Program-made: the position numbers and the translations under genes | Source: Enterococcus phage EFRM31 | Length of the DNA: 16,945 nucleotides | Sequence record: GU815339.1 | Strand: one strand, 5' to 3' | The notes under the pieces: generated by a model | Database searches by the model: none | Seen by the model: the letters and a program-made list of their open reading frames with translations, nothing else | Told to the model about the DNA's origin: nothing | In this document: positions 2,448-16,945 of the stretch, piece after piece | Position numbering within the stretch: the stretch's first letter is position 1 | Layout of the letters: each line of letters opens with the position of its first letter

Positions 2448-2662
2448 TGAACTCACGCCTAAATGATGAAGTATTTCAAGATTGTATGCAACCAAGATAC
2501 GTTAACCGTGACGAACCAAGGCAATACGAATGTATTACAATAAATCATAAAGACCAGATTGACACACAGTATATTTACGCTTATACTATTAAAGAAGCAA
2601 TTGAAATGCTACACAAAATGCAAAACGTAACACGCATAATTGATATTAAGGAGGTAAAGTAA
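2447..2662 (+). CDS. hypothetical small protein
   Basis: ORF track. Translationally coupled to upstream micropeptide. Confidence 0.55.
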   Translation: MNSRLNDEVFQDCMQPRYVNRDEPRQYECITINHKDQIDTQYIYAYTIKEAIEMLHKMQNVTRIIDIKEVK

Positions 2663-3067
2663 ATGAAATACACAGAAAAAGACATTAAAGAAGGTACTAA
2701 ATTAATTTGCACAAAAGGCAATATAATCTGGTGGACCGTAGGTAAATTGTATGAAGTAAAACTAACTAAAGATGATAGTTTATCAATTAAGGACGACCAT
2801 GGACATGACGCATATACAGATTATATGTTAGACTGTTTAAACGGAGACCATATAGTAAAATTTGAAATTGTTGAACAACCAACCGCAACAATCACAGTGG
2901 ACGTTGAACAACGGTTAAATGATAAGATTGAATCACTAAGAAGTGAACGTGAAAATATCTTAAGTAAAATGGATAGAATGGAAGCACAACAACTTAAATT
3001 GCGTGATAAAATCAATAAACTAAGCGAAGCGAAAAAAGCGCTAGAAATTTTAAAAGAATTTAAGTAA
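2663..3067 (+). CDS. hypothetical protein with C-terminal coiled coil
   Basis: ORF track. RBS AAGGAGGTAAAGTAAATG. Confidence 0.6.
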   Translation: MKYTEKDIKEGTKLICTKGNIIWWTVGKLYEVKLTKDDSLSIKDDHGHDAYTDYMLDCLNGDHIVKFEIVEQPTATITVDVEQRLNDKIESLRSERENILSKMDRMEAQQLKLRDKINKLSEAKKALEILKEFK

Positions 3068-3073
3068 AACACT

Positions 3074-3102
3074 TGACACCTACTATATCACATGGTATAG
3101 TA
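3074..3102 (+). promoter_or_regulatory. promoter TTGACA-17-TATAGT embedded in an 11-bp perfect inverted repeat (CACCTACTATA / TATAGTAGGTG, 3077-3106)
   Basis: Seen in sequence. Shares AAAACACTTGACA with the promoter at 6987. Confidence 0.5.
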
Positions 3103-3132
3103 GGTGTATAAGATAACTAAGGAGGAAATAAC

Positions 3133-3210
3133 ATGGCAGTATTTGGTTTAGTATTTGTAACAGTTGGTATATTTGGTACTTACAACATTATAAAGTATAT
3201 TGAGGACTAG
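3133..3210 (+). CDS. 25-aa hydrophobic micropeptide (MAVFGLVFVTVGIFGTYNIIKYIED)
   Basis: Not in ORF track. RBS AAGGAGGAAATAACATG. Confidence 0.35.
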   Translation: MAVFGLVFVTVGIFGTYNIIKYIED

Positions 3211-3221
3211 GAGGAACAAGA

Positions 3222-3446
3222 ATGCCAGTAAAAACGAACTATTATATTTGTTTAACAAATAATGAACTATTCAGCTTATACACAGAAGAACCAATTCTTG
3301 TAATGTATGAAAAAGCAGTTGAAAATGATGAAAAGTTATTGAAATTGGAAAAACCAGAAGCAATTGAAATTGATGGTGAAATGCAATACACATTTATCAC
3401 CATTCCATTAGATTCAATATTATATGTATTGGAGGACGCAAAATAA
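3222..3446 (+). CDS. hypothetical acidic small protein
   Basis: ORF track. RBS TAGGAGGAACAAGAATG. Confidence 0.55.
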   Translation: MPVKTNYYICLTNNELFSLYTEEPILVMYEKAVENDEKLLKLEKPEAIEIDGEMQYTFITIPLDSILYVLEDAK

Positions 3447-3601
3447 TGAGATTATTAGAAGCAATCGCAATCGCTTTATTGGTAACATTCGCAATCGCAG
3501 TACCACTATTATTTGTATTTATTATTTATATGGCATATGTAACTGATGGCTGGGGCGGCATTTGGTTAATGTTAATTGTTTTGTGGATTATGATTAAATA
3601 G
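3446..3601 (+). CDS. 51-aa membrane protein (MRLLEAIAIALLVTFAIAVPLLFVFIIYMAYV...)
   Basis: Not in ORF track. ATG overlaps upstream stop (TAATG). Two hydrophobic helices. Confidence 0.45.
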   Translation: MRLLEAIAIALLVTFAIAVPLLFVFIIYMAYVTDGWGGIWLMLIVLWIMIK

Positions 3602-3612
3602 GAGGAATAGTA

Positions 3613-3834
3613 ATGAAGAAAGATGTAGGTACGTTTTGGAAATTTGAAAATGATTCATGGTACTTCTTTATTATTGGTAGTTTTGAAGATGAAGTTAGTG
3701 TATGTGCAATTGACACTTCAAACAATCAAATTAGTTTTATGATGATGAACCACGAACAAACAATTGACTTTATACCAAGTGATAATTTTGAAATGAATAA
3801 CTATTTAATTGAGGTGATGGGAAAATATGAGTGA
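3613..3834 (+). CDS. hypothetical small protein
   Basis: ORF track. RBS TAGGAGGAATAGTAATG. Confidence 0.55.
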   Translation: MKKDVGTFWKFENDSWYFFIIGSFEDEVSVCAIDTSNNQISFMMMNHEQTIDFIPSDNFEMNNYLIEVMGKYE

Positions 3835-13280: not shown

Positions 13281-13289
13281 GGTGTGCGT

Positions 13290-14537
13290 ATGTCACGGCA
13301 AGAACTTATGGAACAAGCACAAACTTTATTATCAGAAGGTAAACTTGATGAAGCTGAAAAAGTAATGCAACAAATTAAAGCTTTAGATGAGGAAAAACCT
13401 AAAGAAGAAGAACGTGCAGTTGATAATAAAGAAGAGGAGAAACCAGAGGAAGAACCTAAAGCAGAAGATGCTAAGGACGAACCAAAGGAAGAACCTAAAG
13501 AAGATAAGGAAGAAACAAAAGAAGAACGTTCAGCAAAAACTGAACAAGATTTTGAAGAACCTAAAGAGGAACCAAAGGAAGAACCTAAAACAGAAAAACG
13601 CTCACTAGAGCAAAAAGGAGAAGAAAACATGGAGAAAGTTATTTTAGATGGAAAAGAAGTAGAAAATAAAGAAGTGCGTGGATTCTTAGAATACTTACGC
13701 TCAAAAGAAACACGTGCATTGCCTGAATCATTTGAAGGTGTTAAGTCTGCGGATGCATCAGCAATTATCCCAGAAGAAATCATCACAAAAGCTAAAATGT
13801 TACCTGAAACAGTTGTTGACTTACGTAATATGGTTACACGTCAAAAAGTAACAAATGCTATGGGTAAATATCCAATCTTGAAAGCTAATGAAGCCGTGTT
13901 GGCATCAGTTGAAGAACTTAAAAAGAACCCTGATTTAGAAGGACCAGCTTTCGAAGAAGTCAAATATGAAGTTGAAACTTACCGTGGTCAAATTGCAGTA
14001 GCAGAAGAAGCTTTACAAGATTCTGATGATGACTTATCTGGAATCATTGCACGTCACATTCAACGTCAAGGTTTGAACACAGCTAACAAAGCTATCGTTA
14101 CTAAATTAAAAACAGCAACAGCAGTAGCCGCAACATCAATTGATGACTTGAAAACACAAGTTAACACTGGTTTTGACCCAGCTTACAACTTAGAGTTTAT
14201 TGTTTCTCAATCATTCTTTAACGCTTTAGACCAAATGAAAGACGCTAACGGTCGTTACTTACTAGAAGATGACATCAAAGCACCATCTGGTAAATCTCTA
14301 TTAGGACGTAAAGTAACTGTTTTAGCTGATAAATTAATTGGTACAGTAGACGGTGACAAAGTAGCATTCTTAGGACAACCTGATGCATTCGCAGTCTTCT
14401 TCGACCGCGTAGACACAACTGTACGTTGGGTTGAGCATCAATACTTCGGTCAAGTATTAGCAGTAGCTATGCGCTTTGACTGTGAAGTCGTTGATAAAAA
14501 CGCTGGTAAATATATCACTTTAACACCAGCACCCTAG
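13290..14537 (+). CDS. major capsid protein, HK97 family, with charged KEEPK-repeat N-terminal (delta/scaffold-like) domain
   Basis: C-terminal two thirds typical HK97-fold MCP. ATG 13290 with AAAGGGGTG RBS (track 13284 is GTG). Follows protease. Confidence 0.9.
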   Translation: MSRQELMEQAQTLLSEGKLDEAEKVMQQIKALDEEKPKEEERAVDNKEEEKPEEEPKAEDAKDEPKEEPKEDKEETKEERSAKTEQDFEEPKEEPKEEPKTEKRSLEQKGEENMEKVILDGKEVENKEVRGFLEYLRSKETRALPESFEGVKSADASAIIPEEIITKAKMLPETVVDLRNMVTRQKVTNAMGKYPILKANEAVLASVEELKKNPDLEGPAFEEVKYEVETYRGQIAVAEEALQDSDDDLSGIIARHIQRQGLNTANKAIVTKLKTATAVAATSIDDLKTQVNTGFDPAYNLEFIVSQSFFNALDQMKDANGRYLLEDDIKAPSGKSLLGRKVTVLADKLIGTVDGDKVAFLGQPDAFAVFFDRVDTTVRWVEHQYFGQVLAVAMRFDCEVVDKNAGKYITLTPAP

Positions 14538-14562
14538 TACGCCACCTGTGGTAGGGCAGGTG
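14532..14562 (+). other. putative recoding (programmed +1 frameshift / shifty-stop) element: CCC UAG UACGCCACCUGU + hairpin CACCUG-UGGUAGGG-CAGGUG
   Basis: Identical 18 nt at the 3' end of the major tail gene (16916-16933). +1 frame is open for 21 codons (STPPVVGQVTPAETSATIELS) to TAA at 14599. Confidence 0.5.
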
Positions 14563-14606
14563 ACACCAGCTGAAACATCAGCAACAATTGAATTATCGTA
14601 AACACT

Positions 14607-14640
14607 AAGAGGTGGGGCATTCGCCTTACCTCTTTTTAAA
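14607..14640 (+). terminator. rho-independent terminator (AAGAGGT...ACCTCTT + T5)
   Basis: Seen in sequence. Begins just after the stop of the +1 extension frame. Confidence 0.6.
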
Positions 14641-14662
14641 CTATAAAAGGAGAGTGTAAATT

Positions 14663-14863
14663 ATGGCTAAAGTATTTAACGTATACAAGAAAACAGGTAA
14701 AAAGATTGTGACTGGACAACCCTCACCAGTAACAATCACTGGTTTAACAGCAGAAACACCATATAGTAAAGGTGATTTTCAAGTAACAGCTATTGAAGAT
14801 GGAAAACCCGAGTCTAGTAAAGTAGATGTACCAGCATTCACTACAACTGCAACAGCTGGATAA
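14663..14863 (+). CDS. small hypothetical protein, possibly Ig/FN3-like (beta-strand-rich VTITGLTAET...FQVTAIEDGK)
   Basis: ORF track. RBS AAAAGGAGAGTGTAAATTATG. Bracketed by terminators. Confidence 0.5.
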   Translation: MAKVFNVYKKTGKKIVTGQPSPVTITGLTAETPYSKGDFQVTAIEDGKPESSKVDVPAFTTTATAG

Positions 14864-14865
14864 TA

Positions 14866-14888
14866 AAAGAGGGTTAAGCCCTCTTTTT
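14866..14888 (+). terminator. rho-independent terminator (AAAGAGGG-TTAAG-CCCTCTTT + T5)
   Basis: Seen in sequence. Confidence 0.6.
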
Positions 14889-14906
14889 AACTAAGGAGGT
14901 ATGATA

Positions 14907-15203
14907 ATGTTAACATTAGCAGAAGTAAAAAACAATCTAAGATTAGACTATGATTTTGATGATACCTACCTACAAGGACTGATTGATACGAGTGAACTAT
15001 TCATCTTAGGAGCTATTGAGTTAAAGACCGCACCAGATGATAAACGATTCAAGACATTACAGTTCATGTTGGTTTCATTATGGTATGAAAACAGAGTACC
15101 AGCAACAAGCGCATTACAACAACAAGTACCCTTTACAATCGTAGCAATGATTCATCAATTAAGGGGGTTACAAGATGCCACTGATACCAACACAACGACT
15201 TGA
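14907..15203 (+). CDS. head-tail connector protein (gp6-like / DNA-packaging connector)
   Basis: N-terminus MLTLAEVKNNLRLDYDFDD...LIDTSE typical of the gp6-like family. ATG 14907 with AAGGAGGT RBS. Confidence 0.8.
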   Translation: MLTLAEVKNNLRLDYDFDDTYLQGLIDTSELFILGAIELKTAPDDKRFKTLQFMLVSLWYENRVPATSALQQQVPFTIVAMIHQLRGLQDATDTNTTT

Positions 15204-15510
15204 CAGAAAGATAAGTATCCAACATAAAACCACTCATAAGAACGAATATTATGAGTGGGTCACTGATTGGGAAACCAAGGCCACTATATGGTGTTCAGTA
15301 AAACAACAGTATTTCAAAGACTATAAAGAATCATTAGGTACTGTTTTAGAGGATACAACAAACTTCATTATCAGATACGAACAACAGATTCATATTGACA
15401 ATACTATGCGTGTTGTATACAACGGTGTTAACTATGACATCATACAAGTATTAGAAGGTAGCTTCCAACGTGACTTTACAACGCTTGTATGTAAGAGGGT
15501 GAAGGAATGA
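15175..15510 (+). CDS. head closure / head-tail adaptor protein
   Basis: Size ~110 aa. RxxxISIQ motif pattern. Position after gp6-like gene. Confidence 0.7.
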   Translation: MPLIPTQRLDRKISIQHKTTHKNEYYEWVTDWETKATIWCSVKQQYFKDYKESLGTVLEDTTNFIIRYEQQIHIDNTMRVVYNGVNYDIIQVLEGSFQRDFTTLVCKRVKE

Positions 15511-15914
15511 GTAGTCCAAACTACGTTGACTTTTCACAAGTCTACAAGCGATTAGAAAAAAGCGGTAAAAAGGCTGACCTAATTGTTAGTAAGGCAGTGA
15601 ATACAGCTGGTGAAAAAGCAATGAATGAACTAAAGCAAAATACACCACGTTTTAACGGCACAAAGTATAGTAGGGATGGTCAGGACTACAAAAAAGAACA
15701 TATGCGTGACCATGTTGTAATGAGTAAAGCAAATAAGAATAACCATATAGCAGAAGTTGGCTTTGATGATGATGTGGCATGGATGGCACACTTTCCAGAG
15801 TTAGGAACAATCAAACAACGACCACAAGGGTTTATACAAAAAACAATAAACAGTATTGAGAGTGAAGTTGCATCAATCATTCAAAAAGCATTACAGGAGG
15901 CGTTTCTAAAATGA
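15507..15914 (+). CDS. HK97 gp10-family tail/neck protein
   Basis: Size ~135 aa. Conserved AWMAHFPE-G region and C-terminal QKALQEA pattern typical of gp10-like. Gene order. Confidence 0.7.
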   Translation: MSSPNYVDFSQVYKRLEKSGKKADLIVSKAVNTAGEKAMNELKQNTPRFNGTKYSRDGQDYKKEHMRDHVVMSKANKNNHIAEVGFDDDVAWMAHFPELGTIKQRPQGFIQKTINSIESEVASIIQKALQEAFLK

Positions 15915-16276
15915 GACTACCCATATTACAAGTAGCAGAAGCTTTAGAGCAAGCACACCCAGAAGTCAACTGGTTTACTAATGAAGTACCCACTGAATTT
16001 CAAACATTACCACAATTACCAGTAGGTAGAATTGTAGAACTTGACGGACGGTACACAGAATATGCCAGTGCAGACCCTAATTATTTTGTAACACATGTTC
16101 AGGTGGATTTGTGGTGTGAGGACTTGAAAGAAGTTGAAAAGTATTACTTTGAAATTGACAAGACCATGCGTGCAGATAATGTGCAGTGCGTATTATCACA
16201 ACAATCGTACGACCCAGACCTAGAGGGTGCACGTAGGGTTATCAAACGTTACACAATCAGTCAAAGAGTTGTCTAA
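15911..16276 (+). CDS. tail terminator-like / tail-tube junction protein (gp11-like position)
   Basis: Position immediately before the major tail protein; ~120 aa. Confidence 0.55.
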   Translation: MRLPILQVAEALEQAHPEVNWFTNEVPTEFQTLPQLPVGRIVELDGRYTEYASADPNYFVTHVQVDLWCEDLKEVEKYYFEIDKTMRADNVQCVLSQQSYDPDLEGARRVIKRYTISQRVV

Positions 16277-16302
16277 GTGACACCCTAAAACACGTTGATT
16301 AA

Positions 16303-16342
16303 TGATATAATTATTCTAGTAAGAAAATATAAACACTAAAGG
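16303..16342 (+). promoter_or_regulatory. late-gene upstream element TGATATAAT + TTCTAGTAAGAAAATATAAACACTAAAGG leader (copy 2)
   Basis: Matches the element upstream of the capsid gene. Confidence 0.45.
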
Positions 16343-16354
16343 AGAGAAACAATT

Positions 16355-16921
16355 ATGGCAGTAGTAGGTTTTAAGAAAGCTATTATCAGCGTACCTAAAG
16401 CAGAAGGTTCTGGCGTTGATAAATACACAATTGATAAAAGCGGTGGCGGTACTATTGAAGCGTCAATTAAAGGAATTTCAGCAGAACAAACAACCGTTTA
16501 TGCGTCAAACGTTCCAATTTGGGTATCAGCTAAAGGGGTTGGAGAGTTAACAGCTTCATTAAACGTATTTGACTTGTATAAAGACAACGTTTATGAGAAA
16601 ATTTTAGGTATTGAACGTGGTGAAGATGGTATTGCAATCGTTGGTGAAGATACAGAAGCACCTTACGTTTCAGCAGTATTTGTTGCAGACGGTGCAGACG
16701 GTAAAGAAATGTACTTTGGTTTAGTTAAAGGACGTTTCAGCCACCCAGAAATCGCATTGAATACAACAGAATCTGGTGGTACAGAACCAAACACAGAAAC
16801 AATTGAAGGTTCATTTGTAACAGATTCACGTGGCTTTGCATACATGAGTGCTGTTTCAAGCGAAACATTAACACTTGATAAGTTTGTTGACAAAGTAAAC
16901 AATATTAATCCATTGCCCTAG
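16355..16921 (+). CDS. major tail protein (siphovirus tail tube, TP901-1/phi13-like)
   Basis: 188 aa. Gly/Ser/Thr-rich beta protein after neck genes. RBS AAAGGAGAGAAACAATTATG. Confidence 0.85.
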   Translation: MAVVGFKKAIISVPKAEGSGVDKYTIDKSGGGTIEASIKGISAEQTTVYASNVPIWVSAKGVGELTASLNVFDLYKDNVYEKILGIERGEDGIAIVGEDTEAPYVSAVFVADGADGKEMYFGLVKGRFSHPEIALNTTESGGTEPNTETIEGSFVTDSRGFAYMSAVSSETLTLDKFVDKVNNINPLP

Positions 16922-16945
16922 TACGCCACCTGTCCTACCACAGGT
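16916..16945 (+). other. second copy of CCC UAG UACGCCACCUGU recoding element + hairpin (CACCUGU-CCUACC-ACAGGUG); runs off the window
   Basis: Identical 18 nt as at the capsid gene end. +1 frame open (STPPVLPQ...) to the window edge. Confidence 0.5.

What the first reader, a model, noticed from the sequence alone, without database searches (positions are those of the whole stretch)
14526..14640. Major capsid gene ends in a CCC-UAG shifty stop + hairpin: putative programmed +1 frameshift making a C-terminally extended capsid protein
The capsid gene ends ...CCA GCA CCC UAG. From the CCC codon onward, 18 nt (CCCUAGUACGCCACCUGU) are identical to the 3' end of the major tail gene 2.4 kb downstream. 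A stable hairpin (CACCUG-UGGUAGGG-CAGGUG) follows immediately. A Pro codon in the P-site next to a stop is the classic +1 'shifty stop' context. The closest precedent is the +1 frameshifting at the 3' ends of cps and tsh in Listeria phage PSA, where I recall a CCC-stop site with a downstream stimulatory structure; A118 uses -1 frameshifts for the same genes. Here the +1 frame stays open for 21 codons (STPPVVGQVTPAETSATIELS) and stops exactly before a terminator. The loop UAGGG is complementary to the slip-site CCCUA, so a pseudoknot-like pairing is possible. In-frame readthrough would add 11 aa (YATCGRAGDTS) and a -1 shift 6 aa (LVRHLW); +1 is the best fit by analogy.
Basis: partly seen in the sequence, partly recalled or inferred. 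Interest (0 to 1): 0.8.

Follow-up and report, generated by a model that had tools for sequence, protein, structure and literature searches.

The report
Frameshift tag docks split FN3 domain
The capsid and tail-tube genes of this Enterococcus phage both end in a rare CCC codon plus stop, where some ribosomes most likely slip forward one base and add the same 21-residue tag, which looks like the missing first two strands of a small fibronectin-type protein encoded just downstream, so one tag would let one decoration protein plug onto both head and tail.

Summary
The capsid gene ends CCA GCA CCC TAG, followed by a 7-bp hairpin, a 21-codon +1 ORF and a terminator. The 18-mer recurs at the tail-tube gene end. 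In relatives the whole ~65-73 nt module follows both genes.

A +1 frameshift is strongly supported by comparison. Across 28 module variants, 58% of codon differences are synonymous in the +1 frame, against 3-5% in the other two frames. CCC-TAG is invariant, although CCC is a rare Pro codon here. Other phage lineages attach a homologous tag to both genes by different shift sites: CCC_AGY (+1), and G_GGG_AAG, A_AAA_AAA and A_AAA_UAR (-1).

Published MALDI spectra of S. aureus Triavirus virions contain an unassigned 25,208 Da peak. It matches my predicted frameshifted tail protein (25,205 Da).

The recoding is therefore a new member of a known kind (PSA/A118 tsh CCC_UGA; lactococcal PhiC0139 CCC.UAG; SPP1 gp17.1*).

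The new part is the tag itself. It equals strands A-B of an FN3 domain, and the 66-aa gene at 14663-14863 supplies strands C-G. Tag, tag and partner gene occur together or not at all. The same split occurs between Bxb1 gp29 and gp30 (PDB 9d93). Docking is inferred, not shown.

The parts
13290..14537 (+). Major capsid protein gene (HK97-type). The ORF opens at GTG 13284, but relatives annotate the ATG at 13290. The 0-frame product ends ...ITLTPAP.
   Evidence: ORF list; Pfam Phage_capsid E 2e-27; annotated as major capsid/head protein in IME-EF4, vB_EfS_L1 and others.
14532..14537 (+). Capsid shift site CCC_UAG (a 'shifty stop'). Peptidyl-tRNAPro is proposed to slip from CCC to CCU, after which AGU (Ser) is read.
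   Evidence: Invariant in all real modules, although the upstream codon varies (ACA, GCA, TTG, AAA, GCT...). CCC accounts for 8 of 119 Pro codons in 18 window ORFs, and TAG for 3 of 18 stops. The +1 frame opens only 3 codons upstream.
14543..14562 (+). 7-bp hairpin CACCUGU-GGUAGG-GCAGGUG. It starts 5 nt after the stop codon and is the likely stimulator at the mRNA entry channel.
   Evidence: Folding. The stem is invariant in 28 module variants: 0 of 4 synonymous sites vary inside the stem against 11 of 16 outside it, and the closing pair alternates U-G/U-A. Type-2 relatives have a different hairpin 6 nt after CCC.
14536..14601 (+). +1-frame tag ORF STPPVVGQVTPAETSATIELS plus TAA. The tag adds 2,066 Da. 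It is proposed to form FN3 strands A and B.
   Evidence: Translation. 58% of codon differences are synonymous in this frame, against 3.5% and 4.9% in the others, and the stop is always at the same place. The tag aligns with strands A-B of complete FN3 homologues. In the AF2 fused model it forms strands 5-11 and 15-21.
14607..14637 (+). Intrinsic terminator after the capsid tag.
   Evidence: 12-bp stem plus U run; terminator scan.
14646..14863 (+). RBS (AAAGGAGAG, 14646-54) and a 66-aa gene (14663..14863). The gene encodes an N-terminally truncated FN3-like protein (strands C-G), the proposed docking partner of the tag. Databases mislabel it 'major tail protein' (phrog_341).
   Evidence: Translation. 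The family starts at a conserved Met. PHROG assignment. Tag plus partner aligns with the complete domain of P0072 at E 9e-14. The homologue was detected by MS in phage 271 (PMC7503890) and as a free 15,871 Da virion protein in Triavirus (PMC5923470).
16355..16921 (+). Major tail (tube) protein gene. The 0-frame product ends ...NNINPLP.
   Evidence: Pfam Phage_TTP_1 E 7e-8; annotations in relatives.
16916..16945 (+). Tail shift site CCC_UAG (16916-21) and the start of the second copy of the module, truncated by the window end. The hairpin loop is flipped relative to close relatives.
   Evidence: Complete tail copies in relatives encode STPPVVGQVTPA(E/D)TS(A/V)(T/S)IEL(T/S)* followed by a terminator.

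Best explanation
The window is an Enterococcus siphophage of the genus Efquatrovirus.

Proposed recoding. While translating the capsid mRNA, a ribosome reaches the rare Pro codon CCC in the P site with UAG in the A site. A 7-bp hairpin sits 5 nt downstream, at the mRNA entrance. In a fraction of ribosomes the peptidyl-tRNAPro re-pairs one base forward (CCC to CCU). AGU is then read and 21 residues are added (STPPVVGQVTPAETSATIELS) before a TAA and a terminator. The same signal and the same tag follow the tail-tube gene. The virion would therefore contain a minority of tagged capsid and tail subunits. The sequence elements are shown, selection on the +1 frame is shown, and the slip itself is inferred.

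Proposed function of the tag (inferred, about 0.6). The tag is the first two strands (A and B, including the hallmark N-terminal Pro) of an FN3-type beta-sandwich. The remaining strands C-G are made separately as the 66-aa protein, encoded right after the capsid tag with its own RBS and ATG. The free protein is proposed to complete its fold on the tag. One small gene would then decorate both head and tail, in numbers set by frameshift efficiency. In relatives the partner carries extra Big_2 Ig-like domains, so the tag would act as a general socket for adhesin-like modules.
For: Recoding
- Exact 18-mer repeat, and a full 63-73 nt module after both genes in relatives.
- Across 28 variants, synonymous codon differences are 58% in the +1 frame against 3.5% and 4.9% in the other frames. 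Ser TCA<->AGT switches occur, and the stop position is fixed.
- CCC-TAG is invariant, yet CCC is 8 of 119 Pro codons and two of those eight are these last codons.
- The shift window is 4 codons long.
- None of 115 homologous tail-protein clusters is fused in frame to the tag.
- Other lineages carry a homologous tag after both capsid and tail genes but use other signals:
  - ACA_CCC_AGY (+1): L007, L013, L054 and S. aureus phi12/42E.
  - G_GGG_AAG, G_GGG_GAG and A_AAA_AAA (-1): L050 and L056.
  - A_AAA_UAR (-1): L058.
- Nearly all ends examined have a stem-loop 5-8 nt downstream; the L013 and L007 tail ends have only a weak 4-bp stem.
- Precedents: CCC_UGA and ACA_CCC_UCC in Listeria phages (PMC5009743; PSA record), and CCC.UAG with western-blot evidence in PhiC0139 (PMC4759559).
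- Published MALDI of CsCl-purified Triavirus virions lists an unassigned shared peak at m/z 25,208 (PMC5923470). My predicted 42E tail product shifted at CCC|A, minus Met, is 25,204.7 Da, whereas a shift at the stop would give 25,220.7 Da.

Split FN3
- A profile of the partner hits multi-FN3 giant proteins, and also 40 clusters of short proteins that begin at the same Met.
- Tag plus partner aligns contiguously with a complete domain of P0072: 38% identity, E 9e-14, with only a 5-residue gap at the junction.
- The Pro is invariant across 41 aligned sequences.
- The AF2 fused model has pLDDT 94.8, and its top Foldseek hits are all FN3 (TM about 0.7).
- The partner gene directly follows one of the tags in every lineage.
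- Related phages lacking the partner also lack both tags (L062, L064, L063).
- The partner is a free virion protein of exactly its own ATG-initiated mass.
- Bxb1 gp29 ends in strands A-B and gp30 starts at strand C. Both are in PDB 9d93 and are reported to bind.
Against: - There is no protein evidence for this phage. The one proteomic study of a close relative searched only annotated ORFs.
- The hairpin statistics are modest (Fisher p about 0.03), and the stem bases are also constrained by coding.
- The L013 and L007 type-2 tail ends lack a strong hairpin.
- The MALDI match is a single retrospective mass coincidence in a different genus.
- For the docking idea:
  - The FN3 repeat HMM places the tag in the A-B register, but the score gain is not significant against shuffled tags (71 of 300 shuffles did as well).
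  - Pfam fn3 is sub-threshold.
  - The single-sequence AF2 model was weak (pLDDT 70, no significant fold hit).
  - The confident model used an alignment of complete FN3 domains, so it shows compatibility rather than trans-assembly.
  - I could not inspect the 9d93 coordinates or read the Bxb1 structure paper.
Confidence: 0.82

Rival explanations
1. The frameshift is real, but the 21-residue tag works on its own. It might act as a strap between neighbouring subunits or as a short surface peptide. Alternatively it is a decaying remnant of a once-complete FN3 extension. In either case the 66-aa protein binds the virion by some other surface, or not at all.
For: Trans-assembly is not shown by any tool result. 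The tag's similarity to FN3 strands A-B is not significant on its own against shuffled tags. PSA adds short extensions of 24 and 47 residues that are not FN3, so short functional tails exist.
Against: - The tag is under purifying selection and is conserved across at least five lineages with different shift signals.
- The partner gene always abuts a tag.
- Tags and partner are lost together.
- The contiguous alignment to complete domains runs through the junction.
- An FN3 lacking two of the three strands of one sheet is unlikely to be stable alone. This follows from established knowledge of the fold.
Confidence: 0.13
2. No recoding takes place. The repeated module is a nucleic-acid element shared by the two highly expressed genes, such as an RNA stability or processing hairpin plus terminator, or a recombination hotspot. 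The open +1 frame would then be incidental.
For: The hairpin and the following terminator are real structures. The two copies show signs of sequence exchange: they are identical over 73 nt in L010.
Against: - Variation follows +1 codon structure, with 58% of codon differences synonymous against 3-5% in the other frames.
- The peptide, not the nucleotide sequence or the hairpin, is what is conserved in type-2, Staphylococcus and -1 lineages.
- The +1 stop is fixed in position.
- There is no Rfam match.
- The 25,208 Da virion species fits the frameshift product.
Confidence: 0.03
3. The extension is made by another route: UAG readthrough, a -1 shift, transcriptional slippage, or independent initiation of a small peptide.
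For: None beyond formal possibility. There are GTG codons inside the +1 ORF.
Against: - The 0-frame and -1-frame continuations are short, 11 and 6 codons, and are not conserved. The 0-frame stop moves in variants.
- There is no homopolymer run for polymerase slippage.
- There is no RBS, and the conserved STPP lies upstream of any internal GTG.
- The 42E mass fits ...LP-ANPQ (a +1 shift at CCC) better than the alternatives.
Confidence: 0.02

Closest known systems
Listeria phages PSA, A118 and A500: +1 PRF at the 3' ends of tsh (CCC_UGA) and of PSA cps (ACA_CCC_UCC plus pseudoknot)
   Same: The shift occurs on a rare in-frame CCC at or next to the stop, in the major capsid and major tail genes of a Firmicute siphophage. 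A 3' structure follows. Two products share an N-terminus. The type-2 relatives of this phage even share ACA_CCC_N.
   Different: The stop is UAG, not UGA. PSA adds unrelated peptides: an acidic 24-mer on Tsh and a SAP/HeH-like 47-mer on Cps. A118 adds whole HeH and Ig-like ORFs. Here one and the same 21-residue FN3 fragment is added to both proteins.
Lactococcal 936-group phage PhiC0139: CCC.UAG shifty stop fusing MTP to TpeX (PMC4759559)
   Same: The shift site CCC_UAG is identical and lies at the end of a major tail protein gene. The product decorates the tail, and western blots show two species.
   Different: There the shift reads into a complete 22.6 kDa downstream protein, giving a covalent fusion. 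Here it reads only 21 codons and stops, and the downstream protein is made separately.
SPP1 gp17.1* and the frameshift-appended Ig-like/FN3 domains of phage structural proteins (Fraser et al. 2006; PMC8718954)
   Same: An FN3-type domain is displayed on a subset of tail-tube subunits, with the ratio set by frameshifting. It is dispensable surface decoration thought to bind cell-wall carbohydrate.
   Different: In SPP1 the FN3 domain is contiguous and covalent. Here only strands A-B are covalent and strands C-G come in trans. The same socket is present on the capsid as well.
Mycobacteriophage Bxb1 tail spike gp29 and tail wing base gp30 (PDB 9d93)
   Same: The FN3 domain is split at the same B-C loop. 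gp29 ends ...TPPNVSALHVDVSATSTSITIT..., and gp30 starts MPSGLRGYNVY..., matching the partner profile from residue 7. The two proteins are reported to interact in the solved tail tip.
   Different: No frameshift is involved, because the A-B strands are the ordinary C-terminus of gp29. It is a one-to-one tail-tip joint, not a tag shared by capsid and tube. I could not check the coordinates or the primary paper.
Donor-strand complementation in chaperone-usher pili, and engineered split-domain tags (SpyTag/SpyCatcher, split GFP)
   Same: The working principle is the same: an incomplete beta-sandwich is completed by strands supplied by another chain. This comparison rests on established knowledge, not on a test here.
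   Different: The folds are unrelated. There is no evidence of an isopeptide bond here, since the partner flies as a free monomer in MALDI. Two strands are donated rather than one.

Membership tests
+1 programmed frameshift at a CCC 'shifty stop' in phage structural genes (PSA/A118 tsh, PhiC0139 mtp) | An in-frame CCC Pro codon immediately 5' of the stop, with CCN available in the +1 frame | tested here: met
   CCC TAG T is present at 14532-38 and 16916-22, and is invariant in all real modules.
+1 programmed frameshift at a CCC 'shifty stop' in phage structural genes (PSA/A118 tsh, PhiC0139 mtp) | The +1 ORF is open from the site and under protein-coding selection | tested here: met
   A 21-codon ORF with 58% synonymous codon differences in the +1 frame, against 3.5% and 4.9% in the other frames. 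The stop is fixed in position. The peptide is conserved in lineages with other shift sites.
+1 programmed frameshift at a CCC 'shifty stop' in phage structural genes (PSA/A118 tsh, PhiC0139 mtp) | The shift codon is rare in the genome | tested here: met
   CCC is 8 of 119 Pro codons in 18 ORFs of the window, and two of the eight are these terminal codons. Compare 5% in Listeria.
+1 programmed frameshift at a CCC 'shifty stop' in phage structural genes (PSA/A118 tsh, PhiC0139 mtp) | A 3' stimulatory RNA structure at the right distance | tested here: inconclusive
   A 7-bp hairpin lies 5 nt after the stop and its stem is invariant: 0 of 4 synonymous sites vary in the stem against 11 of 16 outside, p about 0.03. 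There is no compensatory double change, and the L013 and L007 type-2 tails lack a strong stem. Stimulation itself is untested.
+1 programmed frameshift at a CCC 'shifty stop' in phage structural genes (PSA/A118 tsh, PhiC0139 mtp) | Two protein species with the same N-terminus and different C-termini in virions | not testable with these tools
   There is only indirect support. An unassigned 25,208 Da peak in Triavirus virions matches the predicted 25,204.7 Da product for 42E. No data exist for Efquatrovirus.
prfB-type +1 frameshift | A Shine-Dalgarno-like stimulator about 3 nt upstream of the shift codon | tested here: not met
   The sequences upstream of CCC vary freely and are not SD-like (ACACCAGCA, AATCCATTG, ATTGTTACA...).
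Frameshift-appended complete Ig-like/FN3 domain (SPP1 gp17.1*, A118 Tsh-L, T3 10B) | The extension encodes a whole Ig-like/FN3 domain of about 80-100 aa | tested here: not met
   The extension is 21 aa and ends at a conserved stop before a terminator. It corresponds only to strands A-B.
FN3 domain (tag plus 66-aa protein taken together) | The sequence passes the Pfam PF00041 threshold | tested here: not met
   fn3 scores only E 0.085-0.094, below the gathering score. The family is a divergent phage subfamily (phrog_341).
FN3 domain (tag plus 66-aa protein taken together) | A seven-strand FN3 sandwich fold with the N-terminal Pro and the TGL...Y core motifs | tested here: met
   The partner profile hits hundreds of FN3 repeats. 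The alignment with complete domains has an invariant Pro and near-invariant P43, G48 and L49. The AF2 model has pLDDT 94.8, and the top Foldseek hits are NCAM, CDO and fibronectin FN3 domains (probability 1.0, TM 0.65-0.71). Caveat: the model used an alignment of complete domains.
Split FN3 joint of the Bxb1 gp29/gp30 type | Strands A-B lie at the C-terminus of one chain, and strands C-G at the N-terminus (from the initiator Met) of another chain encoded next to it | tested here: met
   In the window, the tag is followed by a stop, an RBS and the ATG of the 66-aa gene. The same layout occurs in L050, L053, L054, L056, L058, phi12/42E and Bxb1.
Split FN3 joint of the Bxb1 gp29/gp30 type | The two pieces form one domain in the assembled particle | not testable with these tools
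   gp29 and gp30 are both in PDB 9d93 and are reported to interact. The coordinates and the primary paper could not be examined.

The most novel reading that the evidence does not exclude
A widespread plug-and-socket system may exist in phages of Firmicutes. I found 496 phage records with a partner homologue, including S. aureus Triavirus and phage K relatives, Enterococcus and Lactobacillus phages. In this reading, programmed frameshifting (+1 or -1, with at least four different shift signals) puts the same two-strand FN3 fragment on a set fraction of both capsid and tail-tube subunits. A separately encoded FN3 remainder, alone or carrying Big_2 adhesin domains, then completes its fold on that fragment. 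The result would be a naturally split domain used as a universal docking tag, with copy number set by recoding efficiency.
Probability: 0.55. Interest if true: 0.8.

Novelty: new variant of a known kind. Interest (0 to 1): 0.68.

Why it matters
The recoding alone adds a new genus to a small, well-documented class: CCC-stop +1 frameshifts in Gram-positive siphophage head and tail genes. It also corrects the annotation of more than 100 therapeutic-candidate Enterococcus phage genomes, which miss two virion protein isoforms and call the 66-aa protein a 'major tail protein'.

The larger point is the split FN3 domain. If a 20-residue frameshift tag is the socket for a separately made decoration or adhesin protein on both head and tail, three things follow.
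- It explains why short, seemingly pointless extensions are conserved.
- It explains the small 'major tail protein / Ig-like' virion proteins of S. aureus phages.
- It offers a natural, non-covalent display handle for engineering phages without touching the capsid or tail genes.

The idea is directly testable with existing reagents and existing spectra.

Tried and rejected
It appears only in copies whose loop ends GGG and is absent from most tail copies and from IME-EF4. It cannot form while CCC is in the P site. Rejected.
- Readthrough or a -1 shift in this phage. The continuations are not conserved. Rejected.
- Known RNA family. The only Rfam hit is noise, at 18.5 bits against a gathering score of 428.
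- Pfam on the tag, the partner and the fusion gave no significant domain.
- HMM of FN3 repeats from giant bacterial proteins against tag plus partner. The register is right, but the score gain is cancelled by the B-C loop gap and 71 of 300 shuffled tags did as well. Not usable as proof.
- Single-sequence AF2 of the fusion gave pLDDT 70, and Foldseek found nothing significant.
The accepted alignment contained complete domains only.
- In-frame fusions of the tag to the tail protein: none among 115 clusters.
- The context of P0108 (L059) was not a structural module and was uninformative.
- Literature. I found no paper on frameshifting in Efquatrovirus and none on a split FN3 in phages. The Bxb1 structure paper is not held.
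- PSA and A118 extensions were checked as possible tag homologues. They are unrelated.
Full report
**What the window is**

The capsid-to-tail part of the window (13284-16945) is 99-99.8% identical to Enterococcus phages of the genus Efquatrovirus, such as vB_EfS_L1, LY0322 and IME-EF4. The gene order is terminase, portal, protease, major capsid, a 66-aa ORF, four head-tail connector genes, then the major tail protein.

**Checking the observation**

- The capsid ORF ends CCA GCA CCC TAG (14526-14537).
- The 18-mer CCCTAGTACGCCACCTGT occurs exactly twice, at 14532 and 16916. The second copy starts with the last codon and stop of the tail gene. No match occurred in 200 shuffles.
- The hairpin (14543-14562), the 21-codon +1 ORF STPPVVGQVTPAETSATIELS (14536-14598, TAA at 14599-14601) and the terminator (14607-14637) are all there.
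- In relatives the tail gene is followed by a full second module: same hairpin, a 21-codon +1 ORF, a stop and a terminator.
- The last 18 nt of the window are the exact reverse complement of the corresponding hairpin in vB_EfS_L1. This looks like an artefact at the end of the record.

**Is the +1 frame translated?**

I collected 28 distinct 70-nt modules from capsid and tail ends of related phages. The results are unless noted.

- Variable sites fall at +1-frame codon positions 1, 2 and 3 in the ratio 7:5:12.
- 58% of pairwise codon differences are synonymous in the +1 frame, against 3.5% in the 0 frame and 4.9% in the -1 frame.
- Serine switches between TCA and AGT, which needs several base changes.
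- The +1 stop is always at the same position.
- The codon before CCC varies widely (ACA, GCA, TTG, AAA, GCT), but CCC TAG never changes.
- CCC is only 8 of 119 Pro codons in 18 ORFs of the window, and two of the eight are these terminal codons. TAG is the rarest stop.
- The +1 frame opens only three codons before the site in the capsid gene, so the shift must happen within ACA CCA GCA CCC.
- None of 115 clusters of homologous tail proteins is fused in frame to the tag.

**Other lineages reach the same tag by other routes**

Homologous tags follow both the capsid and the tail gene in each lineage below.

| Lineage | Shift signal | Direction | Example tag |
|---|---|---|---|
| Type-2 relatives (EFAP-1-like L007, L013, L054) | ACA CCC AGY ... 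GAG TAA, usually with the stop in the loop of a different 6-7 bp hairpin | +1 | SNTPVIGAITTDETSATIELS |
| S. aureus Triavirus phi12 and 42E | TTA CCC AGC TAA at both genes | +1 | AKPQKVNVTAKAKSAVISAE / ANPQNVEVAVNSKSATVSAE |
| Metagenomic phage L050 | GCG GGG AAG TAA at both genes | -1 | TSPVVGKVSPTIDGATLELI |
| Metagenomic phage L056 | A AAA AAA G (capsid) and G GGG GAG (tail) | -1 | (not listed) |
| L058 (different capsid family, SPP1-type portal) | UCA AAA UAR at both genes | -1 | (not listed) |

Nearly all of these ends have a stem-loop beginning 5-8 nt downstream of the shift codon, built from the tag-coding sequence itself; the L013 and L007 tail ends have only a weak 4-bp stem. A peptide kept in a shifted frame, at both genes, behind four or more different slippery signals, is hard to explain without translation by frameshifting.

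**Experimental hints**

The review by Atkins et al. states three things (PMC5009743).
- The tsh genes of PSA, A118 and A500 shift +1 at CCC_UGA.
- PSA cps shifts at ACA_CCC_UCC upstream of a pseudoknot.
- CCC is only 5% of Pro codons in Listeria.

The PSA record annotates both slippage products. Lactococcal phage PhiC0139 uses the very sequence CCC.UAG to fuse its tail protein to TpeX, shown by western blot and immunogold labelling (PMC4759559).

A MALDI-TOF study of CsCl-purified staphylococcal phages lists peaks shared by Triavirus virions at m/z 7936, 11,645, 12,598, 15,871, 23,295, 25,208 and 30,373 (PMC5923470). The authors assigned 23,295 to the tail protein and 15,871 to the 'Ig-like domain' protein. 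My calculations for phage 42E are:

| Species | Calculated mass (Da) | Published peak |
|---|---|---|
| Tail protein minus Met | 23,294.7 | 23,295 |
| Partner protein minus Met | 15,871.2 | 15,871 |
| Tail protein shifted +1 at CCC\|A, minus Met | 25,204.7 | 25,208 (unassigned) |
| Tail protein shifted at the stop instead | 25,220.7 | no match |
| Capsid protein from residue 114 | 30,374.8 | 30,373 |

The unassigned 25,208 peak, and probably 12,598 as its doubly charged ion, fits the predicted frameshift product. This is a retrospective match of one mass in another genus, so it is supportive rather than conclusive.

**What the tag is**

- The 66-aa ORF at 14663-14863 has its own RBS and ATG and is out of frame with the tag.
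- Databases call it 'major tail protein' (phrog_341). A close homologue was found by MS with 94% coverage in phage 271 (PMC7503890).
- An exhaustive profile search with this family found 638 hits. Many are giant proteins with up to 29 FN3 repeats.
- Forty or so hits are clusters of short proteins that begin at the very same Met, several followed by Big_2 domains.
- In complete repeats, the 30 residues before the matched part are the canonical FN3 strands A and B.
- The concatenation tag plus 66-aa protein aligns without interruption to a complete domain of P0072. Identity is 38% and E is 9e-14, the tag region matches at 11 of 19 residues, and there is a 5-residue gap exactly at the junction.
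- The hallmark N-terminal Pro is invariant across 41 aligned sequences.
- With an alignment of complete homologues, AlphaFold2 folds the concatenation at pLDDT 94.8, with the tag as strands 5-11 and 15-21. Foldseek then returns only FN3 domains at the top.

The tag therefore corresponds to two of the three strands of the A-B-E sheet, and the 66-aa protein to the remaining strands C-G.

**Do tag and partner work together?**

*For:*
- The truncated-FN3 gene sits immediately after one of the two tags in every lineage examined. It follows the capsid tag in Efquatrovirus, L054 and L058, and the tail tag in L050, L056 and phi12/42E. The layout is tag, then RBS, then ATG in L053.
- Related Enterococcus phages without the partner gene lack both tags (L062, L064). 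One instead has a classical contiguous Big_2 domain on its capsid, reached by a -1 shift (L063).
- The partner is present in purified Triavirus virions as a free monomer of its own ATG-initiated mass.
- The partner profile hits PDB 9d93 chain Sa, the 'tail wing base' gp30 of mycobacteriophage Bxb1, starting at gp30 residue 7. The upstream gene product gp29, the 'tail spike' (chain Pa of the same entry), ends ...TPPNVSALHVDVSATSTSITITPSGAVDDA, which is strands A-B. Its gene overlaps the gp30 start by 8 nt. gp30 is reported to bind the tail spike (PMC12646305).

*Against, or not shown:*
- I could not examine the 9d93 coordinates or read the primary Bxb1 paper.
- The tag's similarity to strands A-B is not significant on its own against shuffled tags.
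- Pfam does not recognise the domain.
- The confident model was guided by complete domains. The single-sequence model was weak.

**Mechanism proposed**

With CCC in the P site and UAG in the A site, termination is slow and the hairpin abuts the ribosome. tRNAPro slips to CCU and the 21-residue tag is added. The same happens on the tail mRNA. After or during assembly the 66-aa protein completes an FN3 sandwich on each exposed tag. The C-termini of HK97-type capsid proteins and of TTP_1 tube proteins are where other phages display their Ig-like domains, as in SPP1 gp17.1*. One gene would thus decorate head and tail. The function of the decoration, weak binding to cell-wall carbohydrate, is assumed by analogy only.

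**Novelty and verdict**

The recoding is a new member of a known kind. I found no mention of it in papers on Efquatrovirus or in three annotated records. The split FN3 domain, with its first two strands supplied as a shared frameshift tag, is in my searches undescribed. The Bxb1 structure may already show the same joint without frameshifting.

My confidence is about 0.85-0.9 that the frameshift is real and about 0.6 that the tag docks the 66-aa protein. A tblastn census finds partner homologues in 496 phage records: 365 Staphylococcus, 113 Enterococcus, 12 Lactobacillus and a few others. The arrangement may therefore be common.

Noticed in passing
window 16928-16945 (end of window): The last 18 nt (ACCTGTCCTACCACAGGT) are the exact reverse complement of the tail-gene hairpin in the 99.8%-identical phage vB_EfS_L1 (ACCTGTGGTAGGACAGGT). 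The loop is therefore flipped and the sequence stops at the foot of the stem. This looks like a fold-back or assembly artefact at the end of an incomplete genome record. [quoted passage not shown]
   Followed up: partly
window 14663-14863, and homologues in public records: [quoted passage not shown] They carry no tail-tube domain. They are N-terminally truncated FN3 proteins, often followed by Big_2 domains.
   Followed up: yes
P0092 (L048), P0140 (L058 6001-6261), P0108, P0115: Some partner homologues themselves end in a tag-like A-B piece, for example ...KPTATADGASIELA* and ...VEATATTDGASVTAS*. L048 has such genes in tandem. This could be a circular permutation, in which the protein's own C-terminus completes its own domain. 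It could also allow head-to-tail chains.
   Followed up: no
Staphylococcus phage K and relatives (hits H54-H67): Kayvirus myophages also encode partner homologues. The MALDI study finds a 7,818 Da 'major tail protein' in K1/420 virions with 96% coverage, next to 17.7 kDa 'tail morphogenetic' and 23 kDa 'Ig-like' proteins. I did not check whether these use tags.
   Followed up: no
L063 2730-3030 (Enterococcus phage contig related to the window): In this relative the capsid gene ends ...GAG GTA AAG TAA, and the -1 frame runs straight into a complete Big_2 domain. This is the classical contiguous frameshift extension. It has no tail tag and no partner gene. L062 (vB_Efm_LG62) and L064 have none of the three features.
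   Followed up: partly
window 14586-14595, and all 28 module variants: CAATTGAATT, which encodes (T/S)-I-E-L, is invariant even at its synonymous third positions (ATT, GAA), although the neighbouring codons vary. Neither the hairpin nor coding explains this.
   Followed up: no
L002 2507-3812 (phage vB_Efa_VP14): The capsid gene is annotated as two overlapping CDSs (2507-3001 and 2958-3812). This is most likely a sequencing or assembly frameshift in that record, unrelated to the recoding site.
   Followed up: no
L001 6605-6640 (IME-EF4, just beyond the window's end): The gene after the tail module ends GAA GAA AAA AAA GCT TAG. This is the usual A-rich slippery run of the tail assembly chaperone -1 frameshift. 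These phages would therefore use three recoding sites within 3 kb.
   Followed up: no
PMC12646305 versus PDB 9d93: The PNAS text calls the Bxb1 tail spike 'gp22'. The PDB entry names the tail spike gp29, and the GenBank gp22 sits where the tape measure gene usually lies. The numbering in that sentence may be an error.
   Followed up: no
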